From positions 15,705 through 79,704 of the forward strand of contig CAZAKN010000004.1 in NCBI GenBank assembly GCA_964486065.1: a stretch of DNA of 64,000 nucleotides, read 5' to 3'. The notes beneath the pieces are model-generated. The model was not told the origin of the DNA. It saw only the letters and a program-made list of their open reading frames with translations, and searched no databases. How positions within the stretch are numbered: the first letter of the stretch is position 1; each line of letters begins with the position of its first letter. The translations under genes and the position numbers were made by a program. The DNA is from an uncultured Gammaproteobacteria bacterium. Its GTDB lineage: Bacteria; Patescibacteriota; Patescibacteriia; UBA11705; JABHMO01. Below are positions 1,765-64,000 of this stretch, piece by piece.

Positions 1765-3000
1765 TTATTCGTATCTTAAAGATTCAATAGGATCCAAGTT
1801 GGCCGCTCTGCGAGCCGGATAAATGCCGAAAAGCAAACCGATTCCAATACTGACCGAACAAGCCAGAATTATTGATCCGGGCGTAATGACGAAATCCCAA
1901 TCATACCCCGCGTTGCGAACCAAAATCGCTACCAGCAGAGAAAAAAGCACGCCGAATACGATACCGATAATCGCACCGAATAGCGAAATGAGTACGGTTT
2001 CCGTGAGAAATTGGGTAATAATGTGCGAGCGTTTTGCTCCCACGGCTTTGCGCAAACCAATTTCCTTGATTCTTTGCGTGACCGAGGCCAGCATGATATT
2101 CATGATGCCGATCCCGCCGACAATTAAAGAAATCGCGGAAATGGCGGTTAAAAATAAAGTTAACGCGCCGGTTACCGAACCCAATGACTCTATGGCTTGA
2201 TTGGAATTGCCCACATTGAAATCATCTTTGGCGGGATTATCAATATTATGTCTGTCGCGCAGGAGTTCAGTGATTTTATCAACCGCGATATCAATGTTTT
2301 CCTCGGAATTTGCTTTGGCTCGGATATAGCCGAGAGAATTTATTCCCAATAATTTTTTCTGTACATTACCGACCGGTATAAAAATCATATTGTCCACATT
2401 TTGAAAACCGGAAACACCTTTCGGCTCCATTACTCCGATAACGCGATAGCGTTGTTTACCTACTTTGATTTTTTCACCGATCGGGTCTTCGCCATTAAAC
2501 AAATCCTCACGCACTTGCGAACCTAGAACCGCCACATTGGCTTCGGATTTTTCTTCTTGTTCAGTGAAAAAGTGTCCGTTTACCACCGTGCTTTCCGTTA
2601 CTTCGGGATAGCCGGCTGAAGTTCCGGTAATACCGGCTTGTGTTTTATTATTATTCCAAACCACGGTTTCATTGGCCGTAACATAAGACGCCGCGGCGGA
2701 AATTTCAGGAATTTGATCTTCAATGGCTTCACGATCTTCATCAGTTAAAGTGGTGATAACAATACCAAAGACCGCGGCTGGCGGGCCATCTTCCTCGGCT
2801 TTACCCGGTAAAATACCGATTAAATTAGTGCCGACACTGCGCAATTGATTTAGGATCAAGCTTTCCGCGCCCGCTCCGACCGAAAGAACGATGATAACCG
2901 AAGAAATACCTATGATCATGCCGAGCATAGTTAAAAATGAGCGCATTTTGTTTGCGCGCATATTTTTTAACTGAGTTTTAAAACCTGATCTGATCAGCAT
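1765..3000 (-). CDS. ABC transporter permease, FtsX/MacB family (paralog of 520..1761)
   Basis: 411 aa, same architecture as 520..1761 (MRANKMRSFLTMLGMIIGI... C-terminal FtsX-like TM bundle). Confidence 0.8.
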   Translation of the reverse strand: MLIRSGFKTQLKNMRANKMRSFLTMLGMIIGISSVIIVLSVGAGAESLILNQLRSVGTNLIGILPGKAEEDGPPAAVFGIVITTLTDEDREAIEDQIPEISAAASYVTANETVVWNNNKTQAGITGTSAGYPEVTESTVVNGHFFTEQEEKSEANVAVLGSQVREDLFNGEDPIGEKIKVGKQRYRVIGVMEPKGVSGFQNVDNMIFIPVGNVQKKLLGINSLGYIRAKANSEENIDIAVDKITELLRDRHNIDNPAKDDFNVGNSNQAIESLGSVTGALTLFLTAISAISLIVGGIGIMNIMLASVTQRIKEIGLRKAVGAKRSHIITQFLTETVLISLFGAIIGIVFGVLFSLLVAILVRNAGYDWDFVITPGSIILACSVSIGIGLLFGIYPARRAANLDPIESLRYE

Positions 3001-3002
3001 AT

Positions 3003-3731
3003 TTATTTTTTTATGCTTTCGCCATTTTTGGTAAAAATACGATTTTTAACTTGTTCATCGCTTTCCACCACGCCATCTCCCAAACGAATTATTCGTGTCG
3101 CGTGGCGGGCCGTATCATATTCATGAGTTACCAGAAGGATGGTGATGCCTTGCCGATCAAGGTTTTGCAAAGTGGTCATGATTTGCCCGGCGGTTTTGGA
3201 ATCAAGATTACCTGTCGGTTCATCGGCAAAAACAACTGATGGTTTGTTGACCAAAGCACGAGCAATGGCCACGCGTTGTTTTTCACCACCGGAAAGTTGA
3301 TTGGATAAATAATCAATTCTATCGCTCAAGCCCACTGTGGCCACGGCTTTTTTTACAATCTTCGGATGTTCGGCGGGAGGTCTTTTGCTATATGCCAGTG
3401 GCAGAGCGACATTGTCATAAACCGAGGTTCTGGGTAACAAGTTGAAAGATTGAAAAATAAAGCCGATCTCGCTATTGCGCAGTTCGGCTAATTCATCCTC
3501 GCTTAATTTTTCCGTATGTTTACCGTTGTATTTATACTCACCTTCGGTGGGACGATCCAAGAAGCCGAGAATATTCATAAGTGTGGATTTACCCGAACCT
3601 GAACGCCCCATAATGGCTACGAATTCGCTTTTTTGTATTTCAAAACTTACTCCGTGCAAAACTTTGGTTACCACACCATCATTTTCAAATTGTTTTTTTA
3701 TGTTTTTTATTTCAATCAAAGGAAAAGGCAT
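3003..3731 (-). CDS. ABC transporter ATP-binding protein (MacB/LolD-type)
   Basis: Walker [13 protein letters not shown] signature [15 protein letters not shown], Walker [14 protein letters not shown]-loop. Confidence 0.9.
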
Positions 3732-43270: not shown

Positions 43271-45175
43271 ATGTTTAAAACATCGGATATTAATAAAAAA
43301 TCTCTGCTTTCAGAAAAAAAAGAAGAAAAACCAGAGATTAAGGAAGAAGAAAAACAAAAACAAATCGCTCAAAAATCAGCAGAATCGCAAAAAGCTTTGG
43401 AGCAGGAAAAAACATATCGCAAAGGTATAACTTCGGTTTTGGATATTGTCGCGCCGGATGCAATGGAAATAAAACCCAGTTTGATCCATCTCGGCGATAG
43501 GGTGGCCAGAACTATGTTTATTATGGGGTATCCGAGATATATTTCCGTGGGCTGGTTTTCACCGATTTTGAATTACAGTGCGGCTCTTGATGTGAGTATG
43601 TATTTTTATCCCATGGAATCGGAAGTGGTTTTAAAACAGTTGAAAAACAAAGTTGGTATTTTGCAGGCGACTTTGGCCACGGACGCGGAAAAAGGCGCTC
43701 CTCGCGACCCATTGAGAGAAACCGCTTTGCGTGATATTGAAAAATTGCGTGATGATTTAACTCAAGGTATAGAAAAATTTTTTCAATTCGGTTTATACAT
43801 CACTTTGTATGAAAAAGATGAAGAAAAACTTGATATGCTGACAGCGGACATTGAATCTTTGTTGGGATCAAGGTTGATTTTTTCCAAACGCGTGCTTTAT
43901 CAAGCCGAACAAGGTTTCAATTCCTGTATTCCGCTCGGTAATGATGAGCTTATGATTACCGCCAATTTGAATTCTTCTCCCATTGCCGCGTCTTTTCCTT
44001 TTATTTCTTCCGATTTAACTTCTGATGAAGGAATTTTGTTCGGAATTAATCGTCACAATAACAGTTTGATAATTTTTGATCGTTTTTCTTTGCAAAACGC
44101 TAATGCTTGCGTTTTTGCGACTTCCGGTGCCGGTAAAAGTTATACCATTAAATTGGAAGTTTTGCGTTCCATGATGCTTGGTACGGATGTTATCATTATT
44201 GATCCGGAAAAAGAATACAAAAATTTATGTGACGCGGTGGGCGGAACTTATGTAAATATTTCTTTAAATTCGGATGTGAAGATCAATCCTTTTGATTTAC
44301 CTCGCAAAGTCGGAGATATGTCAACGGAAGATATTATCCGTAGCGCGGTTATTTCATTGAAAGGACTCCTGAGAATCATGCTTGGCGAGTTGACCTTTCA
44401 AGAAGATTCTTTGCTGGATCGCGCTTTGATTGAAACTTACGCCAAAAAAGACATCACCGCGGACAGTGATCTGTCAAAAGTGGAACCGCCGACCATGATT
44501 GATTTGTATCAAGTTTTGGATGGCATGGAAGGCGCGGATGATCTGGCTTTGCGACTTAAGAAATTCACGGATGGAACTTTTTCCGGTTTGTTCACTTCGC
44601 CGACAAATGTGGAGATGAATAATCAATTGGTTATTTTTTCAGTTCGTGATCTGGAAGACGAATTGCGTCCCATGTCCATTTATTCAATTGTCAATTACAT
44701 TTGGAATGTGGTGCGTTCGGAAATGAAAAAAAGGATTCTGGTGATTGATGAAGCTTGGTGGCTAATGCAACATGAAGATTCAGCCAGATTTATTCACGCT
44801 TTGGTGAAACGGTGTCGTAAATATTATCTCGGTGTTACCACCATTACACAAGATGTTAATGATTTTTTGCTTTCACAATACGGTCAAGCCATTGTTACTA
44901 ATTCGGCCATGAAAGTTTTACTTAAACAATCCAACGCCTCCATTGATCTTTTGCAAAAGACTTTTATGTTGACCGAAGGTGAGAAATATTTACTGTTGGA
45001 AAGTAATGTGGGTGAAGGCATCTTTTTTGCGGGTAATCGTCACGCGGCCATTCGCGTGGTGGCTTCAACCTTGGAAGATCGTCTGGTAACCTCCGATCCG
45101 CGACAACTTTTGGAAGAAGAAAAGCGTAAAAAAAAGAAAAAACAAGAATTGGAAGAAGCCGAAGGCGCGGTTTAA
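43271..45175 (+). CDS. VirB4/TrsE-like conjugative ATPase, central + ATPase domain
   Basis: ...HLGDRVARTMFIMGYPRYISVGW...; Walker A FATSGAGKSYT; Walker B ILVIDEAWWLM. Confidence 0.8.
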   Translation: MFKTSDINKKSLLSEKKEEKPEIKEEEKQKQIAQKSAESQKALEQEKTYRKGITSVLDIVAPDAMEIKPSLIHLGDRVARTMFIMGYPRYISVGWFSPILNYSAALDVSMYFYPMESEVVLKQLKNKVGILQATLATDAEKGAPRDPLRETALRDIEKLRDDLTQGIEKFFQFGLYITLYEKDEEKLDMLTADIESLLGSRLIFSKRVLYQAEQGFNSCIPLGNDELMITANLNSSPIAASFPFISSDLTSDEGILFGINRHNNSLIIFDRFSLQNANACVFATSGAGKSYTIKLEVLRSMMLGTDVIIIDPEKEYKNLCDAVGGTYVNISLNSDVKINPFDLPRKVGDMSTEDIIRSAVISLKGLLRIMLGELTFQEDSLLDRALIETYAKKDITADSDLSKVEPPTMIDLYQVLDGMEGADDLALRLKKFTDGTFSGLFTSPTNVEMNNQLVIFSVRDLEDELRPMSIYSIVNYIWNVVRSEMKKRILVIDEAWWLMQHEDSARFIHALVKRCRKYYLGVTTITQDVNDFLLSQYGQAIVTNSAMKVLLKQSNASIDLLQKTFMLTEGEKYLLLESNVGEGIFFAGNRHAAIRVVASTLEDRLVTSDPRQLLEEEKRKKKKKQELEEAEGAV

Positions 45176-54881: not shown

Positions 54882-55442
54882 ATGTCACAAACAACAAAAA
54901 TTATACTTGCGGTAATCGCAGTTGTGATAATGGTGATTTTGGCTGTGTTGATCGCCGGTCAAACCGGTTTCTTTGCAAAAGATAAAATTATTGAAAGCGA
55001 TCCATTAATTTATTCCGTGGAAGGTATTGCTGCTTCTGTTAATAAAAAAGCGGTTTCTTTTGATTATACCGCGGAACAATTAGTCGCAATGGCGCGAGAA
55101 TGCGGTCATGATATTGATCAAGACTATATCAATGATTTGGTGGCCAAGTTCGCCGGAACCGATAAACTTGTTTATGAATTTGAATATCAAGGCGAAAGTC
55201 AAAATCCCGACACTTACACGGTTACATTATTGCCAAACAAGCCCGATTACGCTTCATTTGAGCAGTTTGAAAAAGATTTTGATATTTGTTCAGCGGGTGA
55301 AGATGCTTATCCGCATATGTTGAATGATGATTGGCTTGTTTTTGTCAGTTCATGCGGGACAGGTTATGAGGACGATTCCGGTAAACCGGTCGGTTGCCAA
55401 GAGATCCGTGAAGCTGTTGAATCAAGTTTGAAACTGAAATAG
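54882..55442 (+). CDS. hypothetical membrane-anchored protein
   Basis: 186 aa, N-terminal TM; terminator 55511-55535 downstream. Confidence 0.45.
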   Translation: MSQTTKIILAVIAVVIMVILAVLIAGQTGFFAKDKIIESDPLIYSVEGIAASVNKKAVSFDYTAEQLVAMARECGHDIDQDYINDLVAKFAGTDKLVYEFEYQGESQNPDTYTVTLLPNKPDYASFEQFEKDFDICSAGEDAYPHMLNDDWLVFVSSCGTGYEDDSGKPVGCQEIREAVESSLKLK

Positions 55443-55577
55443 TAATAGGGAATAGGTGATAGTTTTACCGTTATAAATTTACCAATTATAATTTGATAAA
55501 TAGCAATTAAGGAAACGGAAAACCGTTTCCTTTTTAATTAAAAAAGCTCGCGCGAAGACGCGAGCTTTAAAATCTGT

Positions 55578-56006
55578 TTAGAAAGCAGGCACATTGAAGA
55601 TTTCCGGTGGGGCTTTCGTGAGCATGCAGGTGGCCGGAGCTTTCATGTCGGGATTGTCAAGGAAATAGTATTCTCCGATCCAGATGTCGCCTACTTTTTT
55701 GGCGAAAACATATTGAATCCTTTCATCCAAGTGGAGGTATTTCTTTATGAATTTCAGCTGATTGTTTTTTAAAACAATATTTGAAAGTTTTGCCTCTCCG
55801 TGAATATCGTGAGTTTGTCCTTGCCAGTTGTCAAAAGGAAAATCAAAGGCGCTGGCATTGGCGTCGGGAATGATGCCTTGAAACATGAATCGGTACGGTG
55901 TGTCAACATTCACGAAACCGGCCACATTACCGTTTTCGTCCAAATCAGGATACATTTCCGACATCAGTCGTTGAAAGAAAAAACCTTGGATGAAATATGC
56001 TTTCAT
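55578..56006 (-). CDS. hypothetical protein
   Basis: 142 aa ORF with minus-strand terminator hairpin at 55547-55566. Confidence 0.45.
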   Translation of the reverse strand: MKAYFIQGFFFQRLMSEMYPDLDENGNVAGFVNVDTPYRFMFQGIIPDANASAFDFPFDNWQGQTHDIHGEAKLSNIVLKNNQLKFIKKYLHLDERIQYVFAKKVGDIWIGEYYFLDNPDMKAPATCMLTKAPPEIFNVPAF

Positions 56007-56130
56007 GAGAATCTCCCACTATGTTTGGTTAATGAACAGTGATGAAACCTTACATAAATGATGAATAAATGTCAATAATGTGGAGGTATTTTTGCGCTAA
56101 ATAATTGCTGTTTATTTAAGCGCGTTCCGC

Positions 56131-56160
56131 TTTATGTTATAATAAAGTTGTAATAATATT
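56131..56160 (+). repeat. 28-nt direct repeat, left copy (TTTATGTTATAATAAAGTTGtAATAATA); right copy at 63456-63483
   Basis: 27/28 identity between the two copies; each contains an extended -10-like TGTTATAAT. Confidence 0.6.
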
Positions 56161-56165
56161 GAAGC

Positions 56166-56195
56166 CCAGCCGTATGTTCGGCTGGGCGTTTTTAT
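56166..56195 (+). terminator. rho-independent terminator immediately after left repeat copy
   Basis: gcccagccg-tatgtt-cggctgggc + TTTTT. Confidence 0.6.
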
Positions 56196-56392
56196 ATACT
56201 AAAAAACCGGCAGATAACCGAGGAGCATAGAATGGTGTATATAGGTCATTCTACAACGGATTCAAGAGAGTATTTATTTCTTGGAGAGAGATAAAAAATT
56301 CCCTTGAGTTTGTTGTTGCTCCGCGAATGTCTACCGGCTTCGCGAATAGTTTTATTTGTTATACCATATATATTTATAAAATTCATTCCAAA

Positions 56393-56472
56393 TTTTCCGT
56401 TTCGGCCTTTTGGCCTCATCAGTGCTGATACACATCAGCAGACAGAAGGAAGTTTTTTGTTGAGAAACTTCC
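56393..56472 (-). ncRNA. type III hammerhead self-cleaving ribozyme (copy A) plus conserved 5' hairpin
   Basis: minus-strand: GGAAGTTTctcaacaaaAAACTTCC-TTCTGTC|TGCTGA-tgtgta-TCAGCA-CUGAUGA-GGCC-aaaa-GGCC-GAAAC-GGAA; canonical core, G10.1-C11.1, GUC cleavage triplet. Confidence 0.85.
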
Positions 56473-56617
56473 GAAAACTCGTAATCCAATCCCGAAGTGC
56501 GTTCGGGACACCGGTAACCCTACCGGATTTGAAAGAACGATGCTTCTGAGTTGACCTCCACTCTGAAGCGGTAGAGGAGTGTTCTGTTAAAGGTCAAACA
56601 CATAAAACCTTTCAGAT

Positions 56618-58741
56618 CTAGTGGCTACCCCATTTTAGCTTCAAGGCGTCCAGGGCGGATTCCATGCTCTGGTCATCGGTTTCATCCGAATCTTGAGCCG
56701 TGTTATCCGACACCTTGCCTTTGGCGCTACAGGTCGAGCAGGTGATTTCGAGCGTTCCGCCGGACTTGTATGACCGCATCTCACTCTTGGTCACTCGCTC
56801 CTTACATCCGCAGGTGCACTTGAAGTAGCGACCGCCGATGAAGGTGAAGTTACCATTATCTTGAGTCGTTTCCTTAATGTGCTCTGCCAATTCTTCCTCC
56901 GCGAACTTCCTTAGGCGAAGATTGATGTTCCACCCGCCCCACTTTTCGTAGGCGAGAGCTTCAATCATGCCGTTGGAGGTGCGCTTGGATGCGACGACCT
57001 GTGCGTCGCGACCTTCCGTGTACTGATCGAACGGCTTGTTCCAGTTCACCAGTCGGGAGATGCGATGATCATCCTGACAGATCTGGATACCGTATTCGCC
57101 AGTCATGGAGAGGTAAGTGCTTTCGTCGTAGACGAGCTTCTCACCGCAGGCCGGACAGTAGGGGAAAGCACTTGCGGCTTCGGCGATCACTTTGGCCTGA
57201 CGCTCGGCAGCCTCGGGGTCGAGTCCGAAGGAATTCTCGGTGGTACCGATATCCTCCAATTCGATCCGTCGGACAGCTTCGCGCTGGGCTTCGGTGAGAC
57301 CGTTGACGGGCATCTTCGCCACGATGAACTCGCTGGAGCCGGCGATGTCTCGCATAGTCCCGCAAGACCACTTGAGAGCCAGCTCATCCTCGTTAACATA
57401 GTTCCAACGATAGTTGCCATCGCTCTTGTAACGACATACATCATCGGAATCACGATCACGAAGCGATCCATCGGGTCGGATGACCCAGCCATCACCATTG
57501 CCACTCATACCGCCTCGGCGATGCCACGTCTCGAAGTTGATCAGGATTTCTCCACCATCCACTCGAGCCTGACGCTGTGCGATCCGGTCTTGCGCCTGTT
57601 GCCAGACAGTTTCGACCTTCTCACTCTTCGCTTTGGCGTCCGCGTATGATCCAACGGCCAGTGCTTCTTCAGCCTCTTGGATGAGCTTGCGTGCCTCCTT
57701 GATCTCCGAGTTGACGAAGCCCTTGTCGTCGAGGGAAGCGATCTTCCCTTCGAGAGTAGTCTTCGCTTCTTCGACGATCGCCTTGGTGCTCTCGTGCTCA
57801 CCGCCGATCTCGGTCTTCGCCGCTTCCATCGCCACCTTGAGTGCCTCGATCTTCTCCTCGATGTTATTCGAGGTCAGACCTTCGGCGTGCTCGCGAACGA
57901 GTTGCTCGTAACGGCCTTGGAGCGCATTACCCAGATCGGTGAAAGACCACCTGACATACCAGCCGGAGCTCTTCTCCTGCCACGGCTCCTCTTTAGGTAC
58001 TGCGAGGTTTTCCTCCACGGCTTTCTTCATGATCCCCTCGAGAGACTTTTGAGTTTCCTCAGTTGCCTTCTCTTGGGAATCTGCCAAGAAGATCTGCCAT
58101 TTGAAATACCCCGAGTACTTCTTGAGGCCGACGAATCCATTGATTGGGTCGCCGTTACCGTTTTCCGTACGGGTAATCTCGATGCTCGAGCCCACGCGAT
58201 CCAGCCAGCCGATGACCTTTGCAGTATCACTCGTATAGCTGGTTTCATGTTCACTGCGAGCCTCCGACCAGGATCGTTCGATCCGCGACTTCTCGAGCTT
58301 TTTCACCAATTCCGCGAAGGACTTGGCAGAGTGCCCGGAGCAACGAATCTCCACAGTGCGTCCGCTTGGGAGAATAACCGCTTCGACGGTCGTCTTGCGA
58401 GCGAATTCTTCCTCGACCGAGGTGCGGACATAAGTCTCACGGTAGTACTCCTTGCCGTACTCGATTTCCAGCGTAACGCCTTCAATCTCGACGGTATTGG
58501 GGTTATCAGTGATGACTAACTGCACCAGCTTGGGGTCAAGTTGCGGAAGTTTGAGGCTCTCGAAGTCAATCACTTCCATTGCAGAGCGTGCGCCATTAAG
58601 TCGTAAGACCAGCCAATCGCGCCATTCCGAATGTGTCATCAACTTGAAAATCTCTTTGCCCGCCCGAATGTTGAGCTGGCGGGCTTTTTCTTGTATCTGG
58701 CGGTTCTCAGTGATGACCGCCTGCAACATTTTTTGAGGCAT
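56618..58741 (-). CDS. large hypothetical protein with C-terminal Cys4 zinc-ribbon motifs (G+C-rich island)
   Basis: 707 aa; CPACGEK...CQDDH and CTCGCKER...CSTCSAKGK clusters near C-terminus; codon usage clearly G+C-rich unlike rest of window. Confidence 0.6.
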   Translation of the reverse strand: MPQKMLQAVITENRQIQEKARQLNIRAGKEIFKLMTHSEWRDWLVLRLNGARSAMEVIDFESLKLPQLDPKLVQLVITDNPNTVEIEGVTLEIEYGKEYYRETYVRTSVEEEFARKTTVEAVILPSGRTVEIRCSGHSAKSFAELVKKLEKSRIERSWSEARSEHETSYTSDTAKVIGWLDRVGSSIEITRTENGNGDPINGFVGLKKYSGYFKWQIFLADSQEKATEETQKSLEGIMKKAVEENLAVPKEEPWQEKSSGWYVRWSFTDLGNALQGRYEQLVREHAEGLTSNNIEEKIEALKVAMEAAKTEIGGEHESTKAIVEEAKTTLEGKIASLDDKGFVNSEIKEARKLIQEAEEALAVGSYADAKAKSEKVETVWQQAQDRIAQRQARVDGGEILINFETWHRRGGMSGNGDGWVIRPDGSLRDRDSDDVCRYKSDGNYRWNYVNEDELALKWSCGTMRDIAGSSEFIVAKMPVNGLTEAQREAVRRIELEDIGTTENSFGLDPEAAERQAKVIAEAASAFPYCPACGEKLVYDESTYLSMTGEYGIQICQDDHRISRLVNWNKPFDQYTEGRDAQVVASKRTSNGMIEALAYEKWGGWNINLRLRKFAEEELAEHIKETTQDNGNFTFIGGRYFKCTCGCKERVTKSEMRSYKSGGTLEITCSTCSAKGKVSDNTAQDSDETDDQSMESALDALKLKWGSH

Positions 58742-58819
58742 TCGTATCTCCTTTCGTGCCCGTGTCCCGCAACCAACTCTTGCGAGTGGTGCGGAACTTG
58801 GGCGTGGCAGGGTTTTTGG

Positions 58820-60766
58820 TCAGATACACATTTGACCGGCGAGCCAGTCGGCAAAAACCTCGGCCGCCTTCTCATGCTCCGGCGTCGCGACCTGCTCTTC
58901 TTTGACCTGCTGGCCGTTGAAGTGGGTGCGAGTGGTCGAAATGCATGAGTCCTTCTCGCTGTCGAATTCGGGGTTGAGCCCTTCCTCGGTATAAGCAAGC
59001 TGGGGAGCGACTTCGGCGAGCCATGCCGGATCGACTTTCGACGCCAATTCGATAAGACGCAGAGTTAGCATGCCTCTGCTCGTCTTGATTTGGAGGTCAA
59101 AAGGCTTCCCGACCAGCCATTTGGCGTTGCGGACAAGTGAAGCTGTCCCCAGTTCACGGTCAACTGTTTCACCATTTCGGTAAACATTGTATTGCCCGTG
59201 ATACAGGTGATCAACCATTCCCGCGCAGACAGCCTTGAGGATGTCCTCGCGTTTTCCGGTTGAACCGAATCGGAAGTACTTCTTGACGGCATTGGCGAGA
59301 TGATGTCGGATTTCTTTTGCCCGGAAATATTTCCGGATGCCGATACCTTTCTCGCGCATTTCGTCTTTCGACATCGAATTAGCCAACTGCCAAACGGCGA
59401 GTTGACCCATGACATCGGACTCATTTTCATGAGTCACCATGTATCTCCAATCCGGCCTTTCCGGACGGTTGCGACTCGGAGGCGGAACGGTAATTCCGCT
59501 TACTTCCATGATGGCTGCGACTGTCAGAACATCGTCTATGACGCCGAGCCGATCAGCTTCTACTAACATCCGAGCATACTTCACCGAAACAGGAAGGCGG
59601 TTTACCAGCCTGCCGATGGGCGTAACTTCCCCGGACTCAGTCATGCAACCGAGCCCGATCAGCGTCTGCCTGGCATCCTTGATATCCGACTTTGAGGGTT
59701 GATGGAAAAAATCCATCTCCTCCATGTCGAATCCGGCAATCGCTAAACGCAGAACAGTCTGATCAAGGCGTTTGCGCATGATTTCTGCGACCGGAAACTC
59801 ACGACGCGAACCACCGCAGTGGTCGATGTAGATTCCTTCTTTAGTCCGACCGGCGCGTCCTTTTCGTTGAGTGGCATCAGCGATGGAAATTGGCTTGAGA
59901 TACAAGCCTTCAACGCCATCCACCAGCTCGATTCGGCGCTCCATTCCGGAATCCACGACCGCATCGATGTCGTCGATCGTCACACTGGTCTGCGCGACAT
60001 TCGTCGACACTACGCATTTCGGACGGCCGTAATGTTTGAAACACTTGGCCTGATCCTCCGGCGTGAGTTGTCCGTGGAGAGGAAGGATTTCCGCATCCAC
60101 TCCCGTTTCTTTGATCTCGAAGATCGTCTCTTCGATTTCCTGCTTGCCCGGTTGGAACACTAGGACGTTCCGACCCTCGCGAATGAGTGCCGTTACATCA
60201 TCAACCAACCGATATGCAGGTTTACGGGATTCCACCGGGAAGAGTCGACCGGGAACCGAGATCACCGGCGCGCCGTTGTAGTAGGCGGACAGCTTTTCGG
60301 CTTCCATGGTTGCGCTCATAATCACAACCTTGAAATCGACGCCTTCCTGGATCTGATGCTTGGCCCATGCCACGAGGACTTCCATATTCTCGTTCCATTC
60401 ATGGACTTCGTCCAGAACCAGTACGCCTTTGTTCTGCCCCATCAGTTCGCGCACCAGCGCAAGTCCGTCGGTGCAGAACAAGCAACGGGTTGCAGGCGAG
60501 TCCTGCCGATCCACCGCAGTGCGGTAACCGACAGTGCCACCAAGATCCTTGCCGATTTCTTCGGCTACGCGCTGTGCCACCGTTCGGGCGGCCAGTCTGC
60601 GTGGCTGGGTCACGACAAGATCGTAACCTTCATCCAGCAGGTACTGGAGCACTTGCGTGCTTTTCCCTGCCCCGGTTTCGGCCGTGATGACGGTTACAGG
60701 ATTTTTGCGAACCGTTTCGACGATTGTCTTGCGGAACGCAGAGATAGGAAGTTCTTGATTGTTCAT
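58820..60766 (-). CDS. DEAH-box ATP-dependent helicase (HrpA/HrpB-like)
   Basis: motif I TGAGKSTQV, Ia VVTQPRRLAARTVAQR, DEVH (LVLDEVHE), SAT (MSATM), motif VI QRKGRAGR, HA2-like C-terminal region. Confidence 0.85.
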   Translation of the reverse strand: MNNQELPISAFRKTIVETVRKNPVTVITAETGAGKSTQVLQYLLDEGYDLVVTQPRRLAARTVAQRVAEEIGKDLGGTVGYRTAVDRQDSPATRCLFCTDGLALVRELMGQNKGVLVLDEVHEWNENMEVLVAWAKHQIQEGVDFKVVIMSATMEAEKLSAYYNGAPVISVPGRLFPVESRKPAYRLVDDVTALIREGRNVLVFQPGKQEIEETIFEIKETGVDAEILPLHGQLTPEDQAKCFKHYGRPKCVVSTNVAQTSVTIDDIDAVVDSGMERRIELVDGVEGLYLKPISIADATQRKGRAGRTKEGIYIDHCGGSRREFPVAEIMRKRLDQTVLRLAIAGFDMEEMDFFHQPSKSDIKDARQTLIGLGCMTESGEVTPIGRLVNRLPVSVKYARMLVEADRLGVIDDVLTVAAIMEVSGITVPPPSRNRPERPDWRYMVTHENESDVMGQLAVWQLANSMSKDEMREKGIGIRKYFRAKEIRHHLANAVKKYFRFGSTGKREDILKAVCAGMVDHLYHGQYNVYRNGETVDRELGTASLVRNAKWLVGKPFDLQIKTSRGMLTLRLIELASKVDPAWLAEVAPQLAYTEEGLNPEFDSEKDSCISTTRTHFNGQQVKEEQVATPEHEKAAEVFADWLAGQMCI

Positions 60767-60795
60767 TTTTTCTCCTTTGTACCCTTGGTTTTTAC

Positions 60796-60810
60796 CGTGG
60801 GCGTAAAGTT
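60796..60810 (-). promoter_or_regulatory. conserved 15-nt upstream motif AACTTTACGCCCACG (minus-strand sense), copy 1, ~30 nt upstream of helicase RBS
   Basis: identical 15-mer also at 61144-61158 at the same distance from the 91-aa gene start, followed in both by CAAGGG...AAGGAG. Confidence 0.45.
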
Positions 60811-60840
60811 TGTGTATTTCGGTGGCTTCGGCACTGCGCC

Positions 60841-61116
60841 TCAGCTCACCATCTCTTTGAACTGCTCGTCTCCGTAGTCCCTGCGAATCATTGCAAGGAA
60901 CCTGGTGGCTTTGGCGTACTCACTGGCCAGACGAGCACCGAAGTGCTTGTCGGCGAGGTCGAACGCCTTTTCGTACGCCTGTGTCGGCGTCTCATTGCCA
61001 GCAATCTGGACGAACTGCTCGCACAGCTCCTTGTCAGACAGCTGGAGGATGGCCGAAGCTCTCCTCTCCAAGTCTTGTAGCTCCCGATTGGGAGACCTGT
61101 CCTGAGACTTCATCAT
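60841..61116 (-). CDS. hypothetical small protein (91 aa; island)
   Basis: ORF with AAGGAGG RBS; G+C-rich codon usage like neighbours. Confidence 0.45.
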   Translation of the reverse strand: MMKSQDRSPNRELQDLERRASAILQLSDKELCEQFVQIAGNETPTQAYEKAFDLADKHFGARLASEYAKATRFLAMIRRDYGDEQFKEMVS

Positions 61117-61143
61117 TCACCTCCTTGCCCTTGATCTTGCGAT

Positions 61144-61158
61144 CGTGGGCGTAAAGTT
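61144..61158 (-). promoter_or_regulatory. conserved 15-nt upstream motif AACTTTACGCCCACG, copy 2 (preceded by TTGACA)
   Basis: see 60796-60810. Confidence 0.45.
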
Positions 61159-61213
61159 GCCTATGTTGTCAAAGATACGATCCCAGCATTTAACAAGCTT
61201 TAGATACTGGGGA

Positions 61214-61294
61214 CTTTCTGTTTCGTCCTTTCGGACTCATCAGCATGGACAACACATCCATGGACAGAAGCAAGTTTTTTTGAGAGAAACTTGC
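61214..61294 (-). ncRNA. type III hammerhead self-cleaving ribozyme (copy B) plus conserved 5' hairpin
   Basis: minus-strand: GCAAGTTTctctcaaaaAAACTTGC-TTCTGTC|CATGGA-tgtgttg-TCCATG-CUGAUGA-GUCC-gaaa-GGAC-GAAAC-AGAA; every helix differs from copy A by compensatory substitutions. Confidence 0.85.
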
Positions 61295-61427
61295 AAAACT
61301 CTTTGTAATCATCTCGAGAATAAGTCTCGGAATCCTCTCCCCCTAGAGGGAATTTTTAATTGCGCCTTTATTTATCCTTGAGGAAAGGGGAAAGGCTAAA
61401 CCTTGTTCGAGTTGATAGTATTGGTGG

Positions 61428-62345
61428 TTAGCCGAGCCGGGACTCGAGCGCCGGGAGGATCGTCTCGTTCCAGACCTTCTCGTTGCAGTGCAGGAGAAAG
61501 GCCACGTTCGAGAGCAGACCCGCCTGTGGCGACGTTTCCGTCCCTTCGGGCACGAGGTTACGCAGATCGATCTCGTCCTGATGCTTGCGCACCACAGCGA
61601 GGGAGTACTGCGTACCGTGACCGCCCGGCTTGCCCGCGATCGGACCGAAGTCCTTACGAACGACCGTGACCTTGGCGCCTTCCGATTCCATCCCACGCGT
61701 GAGCGTGTTCAGATCGGAGCGCTCGGCGCCCACCGAGTCGATGAGGACGACACCCGTGCAGGGCTTGCTCATCTTCTCGGCAAGCAGTCGCTCGGCCTCG
61801 GCCACACCGGCCTCGTACTCCGCCACGCGTCCCTCGAGGTTCGCGCGCGCCTCGGTGTCACCCGAAGCGGCCTTGACGAACGAATCGAACAGCTCGTTTT
61901 TCGCGTTTTCGCTTACTTCCGGCCGCTCTTTGTTGAAGGGGGGCAGGGTTGCGAGAGCGCGGACGGCCGTCCAACCAAGCTCCGTCAGCGTCTCCGCGGA
62001 CTGCTTCGGCCGGACATCGAATACTTCGGCGTCGTCATCCATCCCTTCGTACGAGACACCCACGGCCTTCATGGCCGCGACGAGACCATCGTAGTCGGGG
62101 TCGGCGACGATCACGTCGTAGTCCGAGAACTCTCCAAGCGTGATCAGGGTCGCGCATCCGGGAGCCGTTTTGCGGTCGACGATCTGGGCATTGTCACCCA
62201 AGATCTGCTCGATGGTGTCGGCGGCCTCGGGGTTGCGACCCTCACCCTTGTGGTGGTCACGGATCGTCACGGAGATCCCTTTCTCGACGAGCGACTCGAT
62301 GGTCGCCACGAGATCGGGGGTGGCGCCGGTGTCCACGAAGAGCAC
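61428..62345 (-). CDS. hypothetical protein (305 aa, GTG start; island)
   Basis: long G+C-rich ORF; start uncertain (an ATG with good RBS at 62454 is in another frame). Confidence 0.45.
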   Translation of the reverse strand: MLFVDTGATPDLVATIESLVEKGISVTIRDHHKGEGRNPEAADTIEQILGDNAQIVDRKTAPGCATLITLGEFSDYDVIVADPDYDGLVAAMKAVGVSYEGMDDDAEVFDVRPKQSAETLTELGWTAVRALATLPPFNKERPEVSENAKNELFDSFVKAASGDTEARANLEGRVAEYEAGVAEAERLLAEKMSKPCTGVVLIDSVGAERSDLNTLTRGMESEGAKVTVVRKDFGPIAGKPGGHGTQYSLAVVRKHQDEIDLRNLVPEGTETSPQAGLLSNVAFLLHCNEKVWNETILPALESRLG

Positions 62346-62747
62346 CTTCTGAGCATCGGCCCGGAATGGCCTCGAGTACGTTGGCGGAATCGCTGGCGGA
62401 AAAGAATTTGGAGAAAAAAACGGTCGTGGTGTTGATGGTGGTCTGGATCATTTCTGATCTCCTTCCGTAATTGTGGCCGTGGTTTCTAACCTTGGCCAGA
62501 TTTTTGGATTGTCCTCTACATAGTGCACCATGCACCAGATTCAGACGTACCACTCCCCATGAGTAGCGTTCTGACTACAGTATTTCCCAGCACTCGGTAT
62601 TATTCTCAATACATATCTCGTAAAAGTGATTATTGTTAACACTTACGAAATAAATGAAAAAATTACTGAGTGCTGGGTGAATATAAGCAGAAAGCTACTC
62701 ATGGAATTTTAACCAGCACTCAACTTAGTCCTAAATTTGCTTTATAA

Positions 62748-63008
62748 TATAGATGTATATATTACTTCTATGTCTTACAAAACAAACAGGGTTTATATTA
62801 TGGCTCAACGAATAATCTGAAGCGTCGTCTTAAAGAACATAATCTTAAACAATCTCAAGGTTCGCAATGGAAACTTGTTTATTACGAAGCGTATTTGTCA
62901 GAAACAGACGCTCGTAATCGTGAATCTCAGATCAAACATCATGGTCAAGCCAAAAGTTGGCTCAAGGAACGAATTAAGAATTCCTTGTCCAGCATCTCAC
63001 GGATGTGA
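62748..63008 (+). pseudogene. GIY-YIG nuclease-family small protein, apparently lacking an in-frame start (frameshifted N-terminus)
   Basis: frame-0 translation ...YYFYVLQNKQGLYYGSTNNLKRRLKEHN...WKLVYYEAY...ESQIKHHG... matches the small GIY-YIG family; ATG at 62770 (MSYKTNRVYIMAQRII*) is in a different frame. Confidence 0.5.
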
Positions 63009-63455
63009 GTGCTGGAGGTAAGACCAAGTTGAGTGCTGGTTGTACCTCATTTTAAAAGAACATCTGTGATTCCCCGCGTGGCTAGCAATAAAAAAAGGTA
63101 ATAAATGTTGTAATGCTCTTCAATGCGTCGGAGAGTACCACAACACTTACTACCTTTATATTATATAACTGACCGAAATCGGTTATAAAATAAGTGTGTA
63201 TGTTTGCAATGTTTACCCTGCACTTTTATAGTGCACGGGTCTCTCTCCAGCATTGCTTCCTCATTTATATACGGAATGAGGAACTAGTTTTTAAATCTTT
63301 CATCTTGATTTTGAATTATATAATATTTACGCATTCTTGTCAAATCTTCGGGGTAATGTATACATACCTTTTGTATTTTTTGCACTAAAATAAGGAATTA
63401 TTATTGTGAAGGGGAAATTCAGGATTGCCGAATTTTATTAAACGAGATTATATAT

Positions 63456-63483
63456 TTTATGTTATAATAAAGTTGGAATAATA
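63456..63483 (+). repeat. 28-nt direct repeat, right copy; doubles as promoter (-10 TGTTATAAT) for downstream AhpD-like gene
   Basis: see 56131-56160; -10 lies ~30 nt upstream of ATG 63499. Confidence 0.6.
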
Positions 63484-63498
63484 AATAAAAAAGTAATT

Positions 63499-64000
63499 AT
63501 GTCTCTTCAACCCATTGTACACTTGGTGGCGGATGATGAAGCCAAAAATCAGGCCAAAGAAATTTATGAACAAATAAAAAAGTCCACCGGCAAAGTCCCG
63601 AAATGGATGCGAGTAATGGCCAATTGCGAAGATACCTTACACGGTTTTTTCTTGTTATTTAAATCGGTTATGGATGATGCGCCGACCGATAAATTGCTTA
63701 AATGGAAAATAGCTTTCGCGGTATCGGAAGTCAATAAATGTGAGTATTGCGTCAGTGTTTCCAAAATGCAGTTGAAAAATTTGGGATTGAGTGAAGAAGA
63801 AATGACAGGCATGGAGAAAGCCGGAAATGAAAAAGAACGCGTTGCGCTGGAATATGCCGAAGCCACGGCCAAATGCGCTTATAAAATTGATCCTGAATTG
63901 ATAAAAAAGATGAAAGAAAATTTTACTGATGAGCAAATTGTGGAAATTACCAGCGTTGTCGGTTTGTTCAGCTATATCAATCGTTTCAACGACGCATTAC
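63499..64000 (+). CDS. carboxymuconolactone decarboxylase / AhpD-like family protein (3' end beyond window)
   Basis: ...KWKIAFAVSEVNKCEYCVSV... CMD-family core with CxxC; ORF open to end of window. Confidence 0.65.
   Translation, partial: MSLQPIVHLVADDEAKNQAKEIYEQIKKSTGKVPKWMRVMANCEDTLHGFFLLFKSVMDDAPTDKLLKWKIAFAVSEVNKCEYCVSVSKMQLKNLGLSEEEMTGMEKAGNEKERVALEYAEATAKCAYKIDPELIKKMKENFTDEQIVEITSVVGLFSYINRFNDAL

What the first reader, a model, noticed from the sequence alone, without database searches (positions are those of the whole stretch)
62581..63045. GIY-YIG nuclease remnant with frameshifted start, embedded in five copies of the 10-mer TGAGTGCTGG / CCAGCACTCA
Frame-0 translation of 62748-63008 gives a recognisable small GIY-YIG protein (...FYVLQNKQGLYYGSTNNLKRRLKEHN...WKLVYYEAY...) but has no start codon. 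The nearby ATG at 62770 starts MSYKTNRVYIMAQRII* in the -1 frame. That points to a one-nucleotide indel near 62788-62800 or programmed frameshifting. The gene is surrounded by the motif CCAGCACTC (62587-62595) and TGAGTGCTGGG (62667-62677). Together with CCAGCACTCA (62713-62722), these form an inverted pair 35 nt apart. Two direct copies of GTGAGTGCTGG follow at 63005-63015 and 63029-63039, overlapping the stop codon. Such small GIY-YIG ORFs are often selfish or mobile, and the repeated 10-mer may be their recognition site or a regulatory operator.
Basis: seen in the sequence. Interest (0 to 1): 0.55.

Follow-up and report, generated by a model that had tools for sequence, protein, structure and literature searches.

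The report
Small nuclease gene inside hairpin repeat
This is not a frameshifted gene remnant but an otherwise intact small GIY-YIG nuclease gene (its start codon reads ATA instead of ATG) enclosed by a conserved inverted repeat, one copy of a hairpin-bounded cassette that occurs across many bacterial phyla, often at helix tips of ribosomal RNA genes, with gene-less hairpin relatives beside it.

Summary
All five copies of TGAGTGCTGG (≤1 mismatch) in the 64 kb lie in 62587-63039, and 62757-63008 encodes a complete single-domain GIY-YIG protein (Pfam E=3.4e-11).

The frameshift reading is wrong. The whole domain is in one frame. All 23 aligned homologues start with Met exactly where the window has ATA (62757-62759). 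dN/dS against the nearest relative is 0.10.

The 10-mers are the cores of nested inverted repeats. A 23-nt pair (62711-62733 / 63019-63041) brackets the ORF, and there are two ORF-less hairpins (62586-62677 and 62989-63015).

The same bracket, core (C)CCAGCAC…GTGCTGG(G) with compensatory variants, surrounds about 75 of 82 homologous genes from many phyla. At least 28 sit, co-oriented, at helix tips of 23S/16S rRNA genes. ORF-less hairpins with the same ends occur in 23S rRNA, in RNase P RNA P12 and between genes.

The closest described system is Ssn nucleases with flanking SRM/NTS hairpins (Chenal 2025), but the published SRM consensus does not match here.

Best reading: an Ssn-like nuclease nested in its cognate, probably mobile, hairpin element. 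This would be a new variant of a known kind. The mechanism is inferred, not shown.

The parts
62557..62704 (.). 148-nt compound hairpin. The outer stem is 62557-62573 / 62688-62704 (CCATGAGTAGCGTTCTG / CAGAAAGCTACTCATGG). Its loop holds the motif-bearing hairpin listed next.
   Evidence: Inverted repeat I4. ssDNA fold -34.3 kcal/mol, z=-9.4. The outer stem is conserved in the nearest relative L003 (1-68 and 152 onward), but the interior 62573-62681 has no counterpart there.
62586..62677 (.). ORF-less hairpin element of 92 nt with the family termini CCCAGCACTCGG ... CTGAGTGCTGGG (arms 62586-62608 / 62655-62677).
   Evidence: ssDNA fold z=-6.4. It has the same termini and size class (73-103 nt) as ORF-less hairpins in L053, L028, L012 and 32 metagenome hits. 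It is absent from L003.
62711..62733 (.). 5' arm of the inverted repeat that brackets the gene (AACCAGCACTCAACTTAGTCCTA), containing motif copy 62713-62722.
   Evidence: I1. Homology to unrelated genomes (L004, L006) begins exactly here. The same arm is found upstream of about 75 of 82 homologous genes.
62743..62748 (+). TATAAT -10-like box, 8 nt upstream of the start codon position. This implies a leaderless or near-leaderless transcript that starts inside the element.
   Evidence: Invariant in window, L003, L004 and L006. A TATAAT-like box within 24 nt of the start is present in 11 of 50 free-standing units. It was not called by the two-hexamer scan, so promoter function is inferred.
62757..63008 (+). 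GIY-YIG nuclease ORF of 83 codons plus TGA. The first codon is ATA where all aligned homologues have ATG. It is single-domain and related to Ssn and UPF0213.
   Evidence: Pfam PF01541 E=3.4e-11. Alignment A1. 103 homologues of 74-144 aa, most of them 80-90 aa. dN/dS 0.10 against L003. hhalign to SRM-flanked Ssn-type proteins gives 97.3% probability. PDB 1zg2 matches at E=1e-10.
62984..63018 (.). 35-nt segment (net +33 nt, in frame, relative to L003) carrying a mini-hairpin CCAGCATCTCA-cggatg-TGAGTGCTGG (62989-63015). It supplies the present stop codon (63006-63008) and a new C-terminus (SSISRM).
   Evidence: Alignment with L003. ssDNA fold -11.6 kcal/mol, z=-5.6. Comparable 30-nt mini-hairpins occur in L012 and L028.
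63019..63041 (.). 3' arm of the bracketing inverted repeat (TAAGACCAAGTTGAGTGCTGGTT), with motif copy 63030-63039. The ancestral in-frame stop TGA (63030-63032) lies inside the arm.
   Evidence: I1. Homology to L004 and L006 ends here. The stop codon lies inside the right arm in 50 of 69 distinct units.

Best explanation
The locus is one free-standing copy of a hairpin-bounded nuclease cassette.

Anatomy. A single-domain GIY-YIG endonuclease gene of about 83 aa, related to the Ssn site-specific ssDNA nucleases and to UPF0213, lies in the loop of a long inverted repeat. The base of that repeat has the conserved sequence (C)CCAGCAC...GTGCTGG(G). The 3' arm contains the stop codon. In this lineage a TATAAT box inside the element drives a probably leaderless mRNA. 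Beside and inside the cassette are two gene-less hairpins with the same ends (92 nt and 27 nt).

Proposed working, by analogy with Ssn/NTS (inferred, not shown). When the DNA is single-stranded, the two arms pair. The nuclease recognises the conserved stem base and nicks next to it. This drives copying or relocation of the cassette and, in trans, of the gene-less hairpins.

When transcribed, the same stem closes the insert off as a helix extension. This is why relatives are tolerated at helix tips of 16S/23S rRNA and RNase P RNA, as IVS-like inserts. The rRNA-borne copies carry a Shine-Dalgarno sequence and use the host transcript.

The window's copy has ATA in place of the start ATG. It is probably a recently silenced or weakly expressed copy, not a frameshifted remnant.
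For: Shown: identity of the gene. Complete GIY-YIG domain in one frame. Met of 23/23 homologues aligns with the ATA. dN/dS=0.10. Sequence identical in a second assembly.

Shown: motif and repeats. All motif copies are confined to 450 bp and form nested inverted repeats with strong fold signals.

Shown: a discrete module. Between unrelated genomes, homology starts and stops at the repeat ends.

Shown: conservation of the bracket.
- About 75 of 82 homologous loci from Patescibacteria, Omnitrophota, Bacillota, Cloacimonadota, Gammaproteobacteria, Verrucomicrobiota and others have a 13-31-nt bracket.
- In 61 distinct units, pairing begins exactly at core position 0. Watson-Crick pairs are at most 30/61 outside the core and at least 55/61 inside.
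- Some pairs are invariant (C:G 61/61), and there are two-sided compensatory changes such as CCCCGCAC/GTGCGGGG, CCGAGCAC/GTGCTCGG and CCCGGCAC/GTGCCGGG.
- Core identity is 0.80, against 0.395 at third codon positions and 0.29 in the flanks.

Shown: many insertion contexts. Units sit at 23S H25, H45, H63, H68 and H98, at 16S h17, and next to the 23S 5' end. All 28 are co-oriented with the rRNA and have a Shine-Dalgarno sequence before the ATG.

Shown: gene-less hairpins with the same ends.
- Three further ones in a single 23S gene (L028), and others in L012 and L053.
- 32 metagenome hits where 0.5 are expected.
- Insertions in RNase P RNA P12.
- Two in the window that the nearest relative lacks.

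Analogy. Ssn genes are flanked by hairpin repeats that the enzyme cuts as ssDNA (PMC11893778). SRM-flanked Ssn-type genes recovered here have the repeats in the same inverted arrangement and are homologous to this family (hhalign 97.3%, E=2.7e-11).
Against: - No biochemical activity is known for this clade. Cleavage of the stem base is inferred.
- The published SRM consensus gives 0 hits in the window and none near 82 loci.
- The family is as close to UPF0213 as to Ssn-type proteins, so cd10448 membership is unresolved.
- No empty site was found.
- No target-site duplication is evident.
- Multi-copy cases within one genome are rRNA-operon copies, not independent insertions.
- G:T outnumber A:C mismatches in the stems (25 vs 8, p=0.005), and orientation in rRNA is strict. 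Both fit an RNA-level role for the stem, which could be its only role.
- In this 64-kb window the motif is not dispersed.
- The core was located by best match to a consensus, which inflates its apparent conservation somewhat.
Confidence: 0.62

Rival explanations
1. RNA-only role. The inverted repeat exists to form an RNA stem: an intervening-sequence-like helix cleaved by RNase III, or an mRNA-stabilising 5'/3' clamp. This stem makes the insert harmless in stable RNAs and releases the nuclease mRNA. The GIY-YIG protein has a cellular job unrelated to the repeat, and the hairpins spread by recombination or other enzymes.
For: - All 28 rRNA-embedded units are co-oriented with the rRNA and have a Shine-Dalgarno sequence.
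- Sense-strand G:T wobble is in excess (25 vs 8).
- Units occupy the classical IVS sites H25 and H45.
Against: - RNase III needs no specific sequence, yet the stem base is more conserved than second codon positions across phyla.
- In the window's lineage the TATAAT lies between the 5' arm and the start codon, so the 5' arm would not be in the mRNA.
- Most gene-less hairpins are intergenic, not in stable RNAs.
- The related Ssn enzymes cut exactly such flanking hairpins as ssDNA and do not act on RNA.
Confidence: 0.2
2. Autoregulatory operator. The nuclease, or a catalytically silent form of it, binds the repeated 10-mer on both sides of its own gene to repress transcription. The extra copies are additional operators.
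For: The 5' arm lies where a -35 region would be, upstream of the conserved TATAAT. The motif copies cluster only around the gene in this window.
Against: - The same repeat brackets promoter-less copies inside rRNA genes.
- Identical termini occur on hairpins far from any GIY-YIG gene: only 2 of 31 loci have one nearby.
- Compensatory changes preserve pairing between the arms, which an operator does not require.
Confidence: 0.07
3. One reading: a GIY-YIG pseudogene with a one-nucleotide indel near 62788-62800, or programmed frameshifting from the ATG at 62770.
For: No canonical start codon in frame, and an ATG in another frame at 62770.
Against: - The family consensus MYYFYVLQN... is matched in frame from the ATA onward.
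- The Pfam match starts at profile position 2.
- Starting at 62770 and shifting frame would delete the first conserved Tyr strand.
- The nearest relative has ATG at the ATA position and no length difference there.
Confidence: 0.03
4. Classical GIY-YIG homing endonuclease of a group I intron, or a free-standing phage-type HEG, with the 10-mer as its homing site.
For: Weak NCBIfam similarity to group I intron endonuclease over the first 35 residues (E=0.006, far below cut-off).
Against: - The protein is 83 aa with no DNA-binding domain.
- There is no intron or other Rfam family at the locus.
- Insertion sites are many and unrelated.
Confidence: 0.02

Closest known systems
Ssn family of site-specific ssDNA nucleases with NTS/SRM hairpin repeats (Chenal et al. 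2025, Nat Commun, PMC11893778)
   Same: - Single-domain GIY-YIG protein of about 80-100 aa.
- The gene is flanked on both sides, in inverted orientation, by a hairpin-forming repeat (architecture NTS-ssnA-NTS). This was confirmed here on SRM-flanked genes L124 and L182.
- Repeats also occur without the gene.
- The repeat sequence varies with the protein lineage.
- Profile-profile homology is 97.3% probability.
- The stem sequences look alike (TCCCGCG in NTS; TCCCGCAC or CCCAGCAC here).
   Different: - The published SRM consensus does not match here (0 hits).
- Each flank here is not a hairpin on its own. The two flanks pair with each other, so the gene sits in the loop, and the stop codon is part of the stem.
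- Many relatives are inside rRNA genes, which that paper does not describe.
- Membership in cd10448 could not be tested, and UPF0213 is equally close.
- The repeat is not dispersed in this window.
Intervening sequences (IVS) of 23S rRNA (helix 25 and helix 45; excised by RNase III), including ORF-bearing IVSs such as Coxiella (S23p)
   Same: Relatives of this cassette occupy exactly H25 (E. coli 540-553) and H45 (1164-1185), as well as other helix tips. The inverted repeat extends the host helix.
   Different: - The window's copy is not in an rRNA gene.
- The ORF is a GIY-YIG nuclease, not S23p.
- The stem base is conserved in sequence across phyla.
- The same hairpins occur in RNase P RNA and between genes.
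GIY-YIG ORFs in non-intron insertions of CPR rRNA genes (Brown et al. 2015, as cited in Tsurumaki et al.; Tsurumaki et al. 2024, PMC11270868)
   Same: Same kind of protein, and the same observation that these inserts are neither group I nor group II introns and sit at variable helix tips.
   Different: That work does not report the bracketing inverted repeat ('inverted repeat' and 'hairpin' do not occur in its text). It also does not report the conserved core, the non-CPR hosts, the free-standing copies or the gene-less hairpins.
REP/REPIN elements with RAYT, and IS200/IS605 (ssDNA hairpin-dependent HUH transposases)
   Same: A small gene flanked by inverted copies of a short palindromic repeat. 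Gene-less hairpin doublets lie in intergenic, often convergent-gene, positions. Dependence on ssDNA hairpins is proposed.
   Different: The enzyme fold differs (GIY-YIG, not HUH-Y1). No dispersed high-copy repeat was seen in this window. Transposition has not been shown.
UPF0213 proteins (BH0048, PDB 1zg2; EF2693, PDB 1ywl; E. coli YhbQ)
   Same: Closest solved structures by sequence (E=1e-10 and 1e-7). Same size, single GIY-YIG domain.
   Different: No repeat association is known to me for UPF0213. The C-terminal half (WKLVYYEAY...HGQAKRWLKERI) is specific to this clade.

Membership tests
Ssn nucleases with SRM repeats (Chenal 2025) | Single-domain GIY-YIG protein of about 80-100 aa | tested here: met
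   83 codons. Pfam PF01541 is the only match above its curated cut-off and covers profile positions 2-74 of 78. Homologues are 74-144 aa, mostly 80-90.
Ssn nucleases with SRM repeats (Chenal 2025) | Belongs to the cd10448 clade | tested here: inconclusive
   CDD is not available here. hhalign to three SRM-flanked Ssn-type proteins gives 97.3% probability, E=2.7e-11, 26% identity. Similarity to UPF0213 is equally strong (E=1e-10).
Ssn nucleases with SRM repeats (Chenal 2025) | Gene flanked 5' and 3' by hairpin-forming repeats | tested here: met
   23-nt inverted repeat around the ORF plus two hairpins with the same core. Conserved in about 75 of 82 loci.
Ssn nucleases with SRM repeats (Chenal 2025) | Repeats match the SRM consensus HGTCWYN(0-2)YYVSBRHN(0-5)WNVSBRGN(0-2)RNCYNB | tested here: not met
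   0 matches in the window. 3 matches in 82 loci, none within 300 nt of the ORF. Positive control: the regex finds the repeats next to L090, L124 and L182.
Ssn nucleases with SRM repeats (Chenal 2025) | Site-specific cleavage of ssDNA only, next to the repeat | not testable with these tools
   Needs purified protein and oligonucleotide substrates.
rRNA intervening sequence (IVS) | Located at the tip of an rRNA helix, replacing the loop | tested here: not met
   No rRNA gene in the window. Met by 28 related loci at H25, H45, H63, H68, H98 and 16S h17.
rRNA intervening sequence (IVS) | Excised by RNase III, giving fragmented rRNA | not testable with these tools
   Needs RNA end mapping in a cultured host, for example Deferribacter thermophilus (L046) or Desulfofundulus thermosubterraneus (L047).
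GIY-YIG homing endonuclease (I-TevI type) | Nuclease domain joined to a DNA-binding domain, and residence in a self-splicing intron or phage gene cluster | tested here: not met
   Single domain only. No intron model matches. The context is a cellular chromosome.
Insertion sequence / MITE | Terminal inverted repeats that delimit the unit | tested here: met
   Homology between unrelated genomes begins and ends at the repeat ends. Pairing starts at core position 0.
Insertion sequence / MITE | Target-site duplication and presence/absence polymorphism | tested here: inconclusive
   No direct repeat is evident at the unit ends. The empty-site scan found nothing. However, two gene-less hairpins are present in the window and absent from the nearest relative.
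REP/RAYT | HUH-Y1 (RAYT) transposase flanked by REPs | tested here: not met
   The enclosed protein is GIY-YIG. Only the architecture is alike.

The most novel reading that the evidence does not exclude
Hairpin-bounded GIY-YIG cassettes form a cross-phylum family of mobile elements with autonomous (nuclease-encoding) and non-autonomous (27-100-nt hairpin) members. All share the stem base CCCAGCAC/GTGCTGGG, which the nuclease recognises. They colonise the tips of helices in 16S/23S rRNA and RNase P RNA, so they would be the source of one class of rRNA 'intervening sequences'. They also colonise terminator-like intergenic positions. On this reading they are a sister system to Ssn/NTS in which the nuclease gene rides inside its own target hairpin.
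Probability: 0.45. Interest if true: 0.8.

Novelty: new variant of a known kind. Interest (0 to 1): 0.62.

Why it matters
If the model holds, it connects three literatures that are currently separate:
- the newly described Ssn ssDNA nucleases and their hairpin repeats;
- the long-unexplained origin and horizontal spread of rRNA intervening sequences at helices 25 and 45;
- the GIY-YIG ORFs noted in CPR rRNA insertions.

It would define a simple selfish element in which a roughly 250-bp nuclease gene sits inside its own target hairpin. Such an element can live inside essential structured RNA genes because its inverted repeat merely lengthens a helix.

Practical consequences:
- The conserved core with lineage-specific compensatory variants offers a ready catalogue of nuclease/site pairs for ssDNA tools.
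- Several cultured hosts (Deferribacter, Desulfofundulus, Methylomicrobium, Methylotuvimicrobium) make the model directly testable.

For annotation, it shows that a 'start-less' small GIY-YIG ORF next to repeats should not be dismissed as a frameshifted remnant.

Tried and rejected
- Frameshift or indel hypothesis: rejected by the alignment.
- tRNA or tmRNA at the GC-island border, or a known RNA family at the locus: none. Only sub-threshold miRNA-precursor hits, which merely reflect long hairpins.
- Published SRM regex: no hits.
- NCBIfam: only a sub-threshold group I intron endonuclease hit.
- tblastn against plasmids, to find SRM-flanked relatives: a single Planktothrix hit, not useful.
- Supplementary data of the Ssn paper: not held. 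Bona fide Ssn-type genes were instead recovered from viral contigs through the NTS pattern.
- Empty-site search in metagenomes, with the window's flanks joined: 0 hits.
- Idea that multi-copy genomes prove transposition: rejected, because the duplicate loci are rRNA operon copies.
- Idea that all roughly 100-nt hairpins sit in stable RNA genes: rejected. Only 5 of 31 loci do, and the rest are intergenic. About three quarters of the raw metagenome pattern hits are compatible with chance or assembly palindromes.
- PHROGs and PADLOC on the neighbouring GC-rich island: nothing specific.
- Literature searches for GIY-YIG with hairpin, IVS or RNase P: nothing beyond the two papers cited.
Full report
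**Setting.** The window is a cellular chromosome of about 39% G+C. It encodes GyrB, GatB, a P-type ATPase, a TraG/VirB4-like ATPase, and DUF5667 and LTD proteins. The closest GIY-YIG relatives are from Patescibacteria/CPR metagenomes. The finding lies at the right edge of a foreign-looking island of 55-65% G+C, roughly 56.4-62.45 kb. A Logan assembly of another run (L002, SRR7048224) is identical to the window over 54882-64000. The junctions and the locus are therefore not a one-off assembly chimera.

**Check of the observation.**
- TGAGTGCTGG (≤1 mismatch) occurs five times, all in 62587-63039 and nowhere else in 64 kb.
- The ORF translation is as quoted, and Pfam recognises a nearly full-length GIY-YIG domain (E=3.4e-11, profile 2-74 of 78).
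- Correction: the last copy is TTGAGTGCTGG.
- Addition: there is a sixth, degenerate copy at 62989-62999.
- The copies are not isolated 10-mers. They are the cores of three inverted repeats: 62711-62733/63019-63041, which encloses the ORF; 62586-62608/62655-62677; and an outer pair 62557-62573/62688-62704 that encloses the second.
- The region folds far better than shuffled controls, as RNA (z=-11) and as ssDNA (z=-5.6 to -9.4).

**The gene is not frameshifted.**
- Aligned with 23 homologues, the window sequence is collinear from the first residue. All 23 begin with Met exactly at the window's ATA codon (62757-62759), followed by the consensus YYFYVLQN.
- The nearest relative (P0001 on L003, 84-87% aa identity) has ATG there and no length difference nearby.
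- The ORF keeps every invariant residue of the family (Y, Y, YxG, R27, H31, E47 and others).
- It shows dN/dS=0.10 against L003 (dS=0.63).
- The only lesion is one base at the start codon. If the mRNA is leaderless, as suggested below, ATA would probably silence it. One other locus has CTG at this position (L062), so a weak near-cognate start cannot be excluded. A base-calling error cannot be excluded either without reads.

**The inverted repeat is a conserved, sharply bounded feature of the family.**
- In four unrelated genomes, nucleotide homology begins at CCAGCACTCAA and ends at TTGAGTGCTGG. Outside these the flanks are unrelated.
- A scan of one genome per GTDB species found 564 loci encoding relatives, and 80 were retrieved. 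About 75 of 82 loci have a 13-31-nt inverted repeat around the ORF.
- Anchored on the core, 61 distinct units show Watson-Crick pairing in at most 30/61 at positions -3 to -1 and at least 55/61 at positions 0 to 13.
- There are invariant pairs (position 1, C:G 61/61; position 5, 60/61) and two-sided compensatory changes at positions 0, 3, 4 and 8-13.
- Mean pairwise identity of the 8-nt core is 0.80. This compares with 0.71 at second codon positions, 0.395 at third positions and 0.29 in the immediate flanks. Caveat: the core was located by best match to a consensus.
- The stop codon lies inside the 3' arm in 50 of 69 distinct units. This explains the T-N-A variability of the core. In the window the ancestral in-frame TGA is at 63030-63032.

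**Where the cassette lives.**
- Rfam and BLAST against E. coli rRNA show that at least 28 of the 82 loci are inside or abutting rRNA genes. The cassette replaces the tip of a helix:

| Site (E. coli numbering) | Loci |
|---|---|
| 23S H25 (540-553) | 13 loci from at least five phyla |
| 23S H45 (1164-1185) | L038, L039 |
| 23S H63 | L043, L077 |
| 23S H68 (1866-1875) | L036, L051, L076 |
| 23S H98 (2789-2821) | L028, L047, L053, L071 |
| 16S h17 (452-480) | L059, L084 |
| 16S 5' domain | L086 |
| Position abutting the 23S 5' end | L023 |

- All 28 are co-oriented with the rRNA. They carry a GGAG-type Shine-Dalgarno sequence before the ATG.
- Free-standing CPR copies, including the window's, instead have TATAAT 6-9 nt before the ATG.
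- H25 and H45 are the classical sites of RNase III-excised intervening sequences (established knowledge; PMC11270868).
- Stem mismatches are biased towards G:T over A:C on the sense strand (25 vs 8, p=0.005).

**Gene-less hairpins with the same ends.**
- One Bacillota 23S gene (L028) has the nuclease unit at H98 plus motif-bearing hairpins at three other helix tips, including H25 and H45.
- L012 and L053 have further examples in 16S, in 23S and in the 23S-5S spacer.
Many hits are compatible with chance (my estimate). However, 32 carry the extended family ends CTCAA...TTGAG where about 0.5 are expected. These are 73-103 nt long, with unrelated interiors.
- Five of the 31 loci place them in stable RNA genes: 23S, and the P12 helix of RNase P RNA. 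The others are intergenic, often between gene ends. Only 2 of 31 have a GIY-YIG gene nearby.
- In the window, the 92-nt hairpin (62586-62677) and the 27-nt mini-hairpin lie in segments that the nearest relative L003 lacks. The mini-hairpin sits in a net 33-nt, in-frame insertion at 62984-63018 that creates the present stop codon. Everything around these segments is homologous to L003. This is the best evidence here for turnover of the hairpins.

**Comparison with what is known.**
- Chenal et al. (2025, PMC11893778) described Ssn. These are single-domain GIY-YIG proteins (cd10448) that bind a hairpin repeat (NTS/SRM) and cut ssDNA next to it, but not dsDNA or RNA. Their genes are typically flanked by the repeat ('NTS-ssnA-NTS', likened to an IS or to REP/RAYT).
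- I recovered three such SRM-flanked genes from viral contigs. In two (L124, L182) the repeats flank the gene in inverted orientation, as here. In the third (L090) both detected repeats lie on one side. They are homologous to this family (hhalign 97.3%).
- However, the SRM consensus finds nothing in the window or near the 82 loci. UPF0213 structures are equally close. In this clade the two flanks pair with each other rather than each forming its own hairpin. The Gammaproteobacterial members (for example L061) are intermediate, with a roughly 100-nt hairpin on each side.
- Tsurumaki et al. (2024, PMC11270868) noted GIY-YIG ORFs in non-intron rRNA insertions of CPR bacteria, but not the repeat.
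- I found no paper linking these observations. Subscription-only literature was not searchable.

**Mechanism, and what is shown versus inferred.**
- Shown: the anatomy; its conservation with covariation; the sharp boundaries; the diversity of insertion contexts; the co-orientation and Shine-Dalgarno sequence in rRNA; the existence of gene-less derivatives; and homology to Ssn-type proteins.
- Inferred: (i) the nuclease recognises the conserved stem base, probably in ssDNA, and nicks beside it; (ii) this drives spread of cassettes and hairpins; (iii) the RNA stem makes inserts neutral in structured RNAs and may be cut by RNase III; (iv) the window's transcript is leaderless and the ATA copy is silent or weak.
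- The main rival is that the stem works only at the RNA level and the nuclease is unrelated to it. I rate this at about 0.2, because sequence conservation of the stem base is not explained by RNase III and because most gene-less hairpins are not in stable RNAs.

**Verdict.** The finding is real and more interesting than a decayed gene. It is a member of a widespread but only partly described system: a new variant of the Ssn/hairpin-repeat theme, with a link to rRNA intervening sequences. The 'recognition site / selfish element' idea is supported by comparative evidence but not demonstrated.

Noticed in passing
window 56131-56150 and 63456-63475: An exact 20-nt direct repeat TTTATGTTATAATAAAGTTG (expected 0.02 by chance) brackets a 7.3-kb segment. 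The segment contains the GC-rich island and the hairpin/GIY-YIG locus. The second copy is the promoter region of the CMD-family gene (ATG 63499). The first copy is followed by a terminator-like hairpin (about 56163-56190). This looks like an att-type duplication around an integrated element, but no integrase was recognised.
   Followed up: partly
window 56400-62450 (minus-strand ORFs 56618-58741, 58820-60766, 60841-61116, 61428-62345): An island of 55-65% G+C in a 39% G+C genome. It encodes a DEAH/HA2 helicase (648 aa) and three proteins with no Pfam, PHROGs or PADLOC match (707, 91 and 305 aa). It is also found on a separate 4.6-kb contig from another run (L001). Its function is unknown.
   Followed up: partly
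window 61215-61270 (-): A type III hammerhead ribozyme (Rfam RF00008, 49.1 bits against a gathering score of 48.5, E=9e-8). It lies between the 305-aa and 91-aa ORFs of the GC-rich island, on their strand.
   Followed up: no
window 62345-62451 (-): A strong SD+ATG (GGAAGGAGATCAGAAATG, ATG at 62451) opens a frame (MIQTTINTT...) different from that of the 305-aa ORF, which starts at GTG 62345. This suggests a possible frameshift or mis-assembled start in the island's first gene.
   Followed up: no
window 63094-63157: Another long imperfect hairpin (26-nt arms, 81% complementary; ssDNA z=-4.3), downstream of the cassette and without the CCAGCAC motif. It is not conserved in L003.
   Followed up: no
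L212:1448-1550 and L268:337-438 (metagenome contigs): Bacterial RNase P RNA genes (class A) carry a hairpin of about 100 nt with ends CCCAGCACTCAA/TTGAGTGCTGGG at the tip of P12. L268 has a second hairpin, with variant ends CCCGGCACTCAAC/GTTGAGTGCCGGG, near the 3' end of the gene.
   Followed up: partly
L028:1-3370 (Bacillota MAG, 23S rRNA gene): One 23S gene carries four motif-bearing insertions (211-309; H25 594-624; H45 1243-1340; and the nuclease unit at H98, 2963-3273). A group II intron lies downstream of the 5S gene.
   Followed up: partly
L090:2723-3493, L124:881-1306, L182:7785-8165 (IMG/VR contigs): Ssn-type GIY-YIG genes associated with NTS-like repeats (CGTCATTCCCGCG...GCGGGAATCCAG) occur on contigs classified as viral. 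In L124 and L182 the repeats flank the gene in inverted orientation. In L090 both detected repeats lie on one side of the gene.
   Followed up: partly
window 43271-45175 and neighbours: A TraG/VirB4-like P-loop ATPase sits within a long co-directional gene block (19-56 kb) with strong positive GC skew. This may be a type IV secretion or conjugation-like cluster.
   Followed up: no
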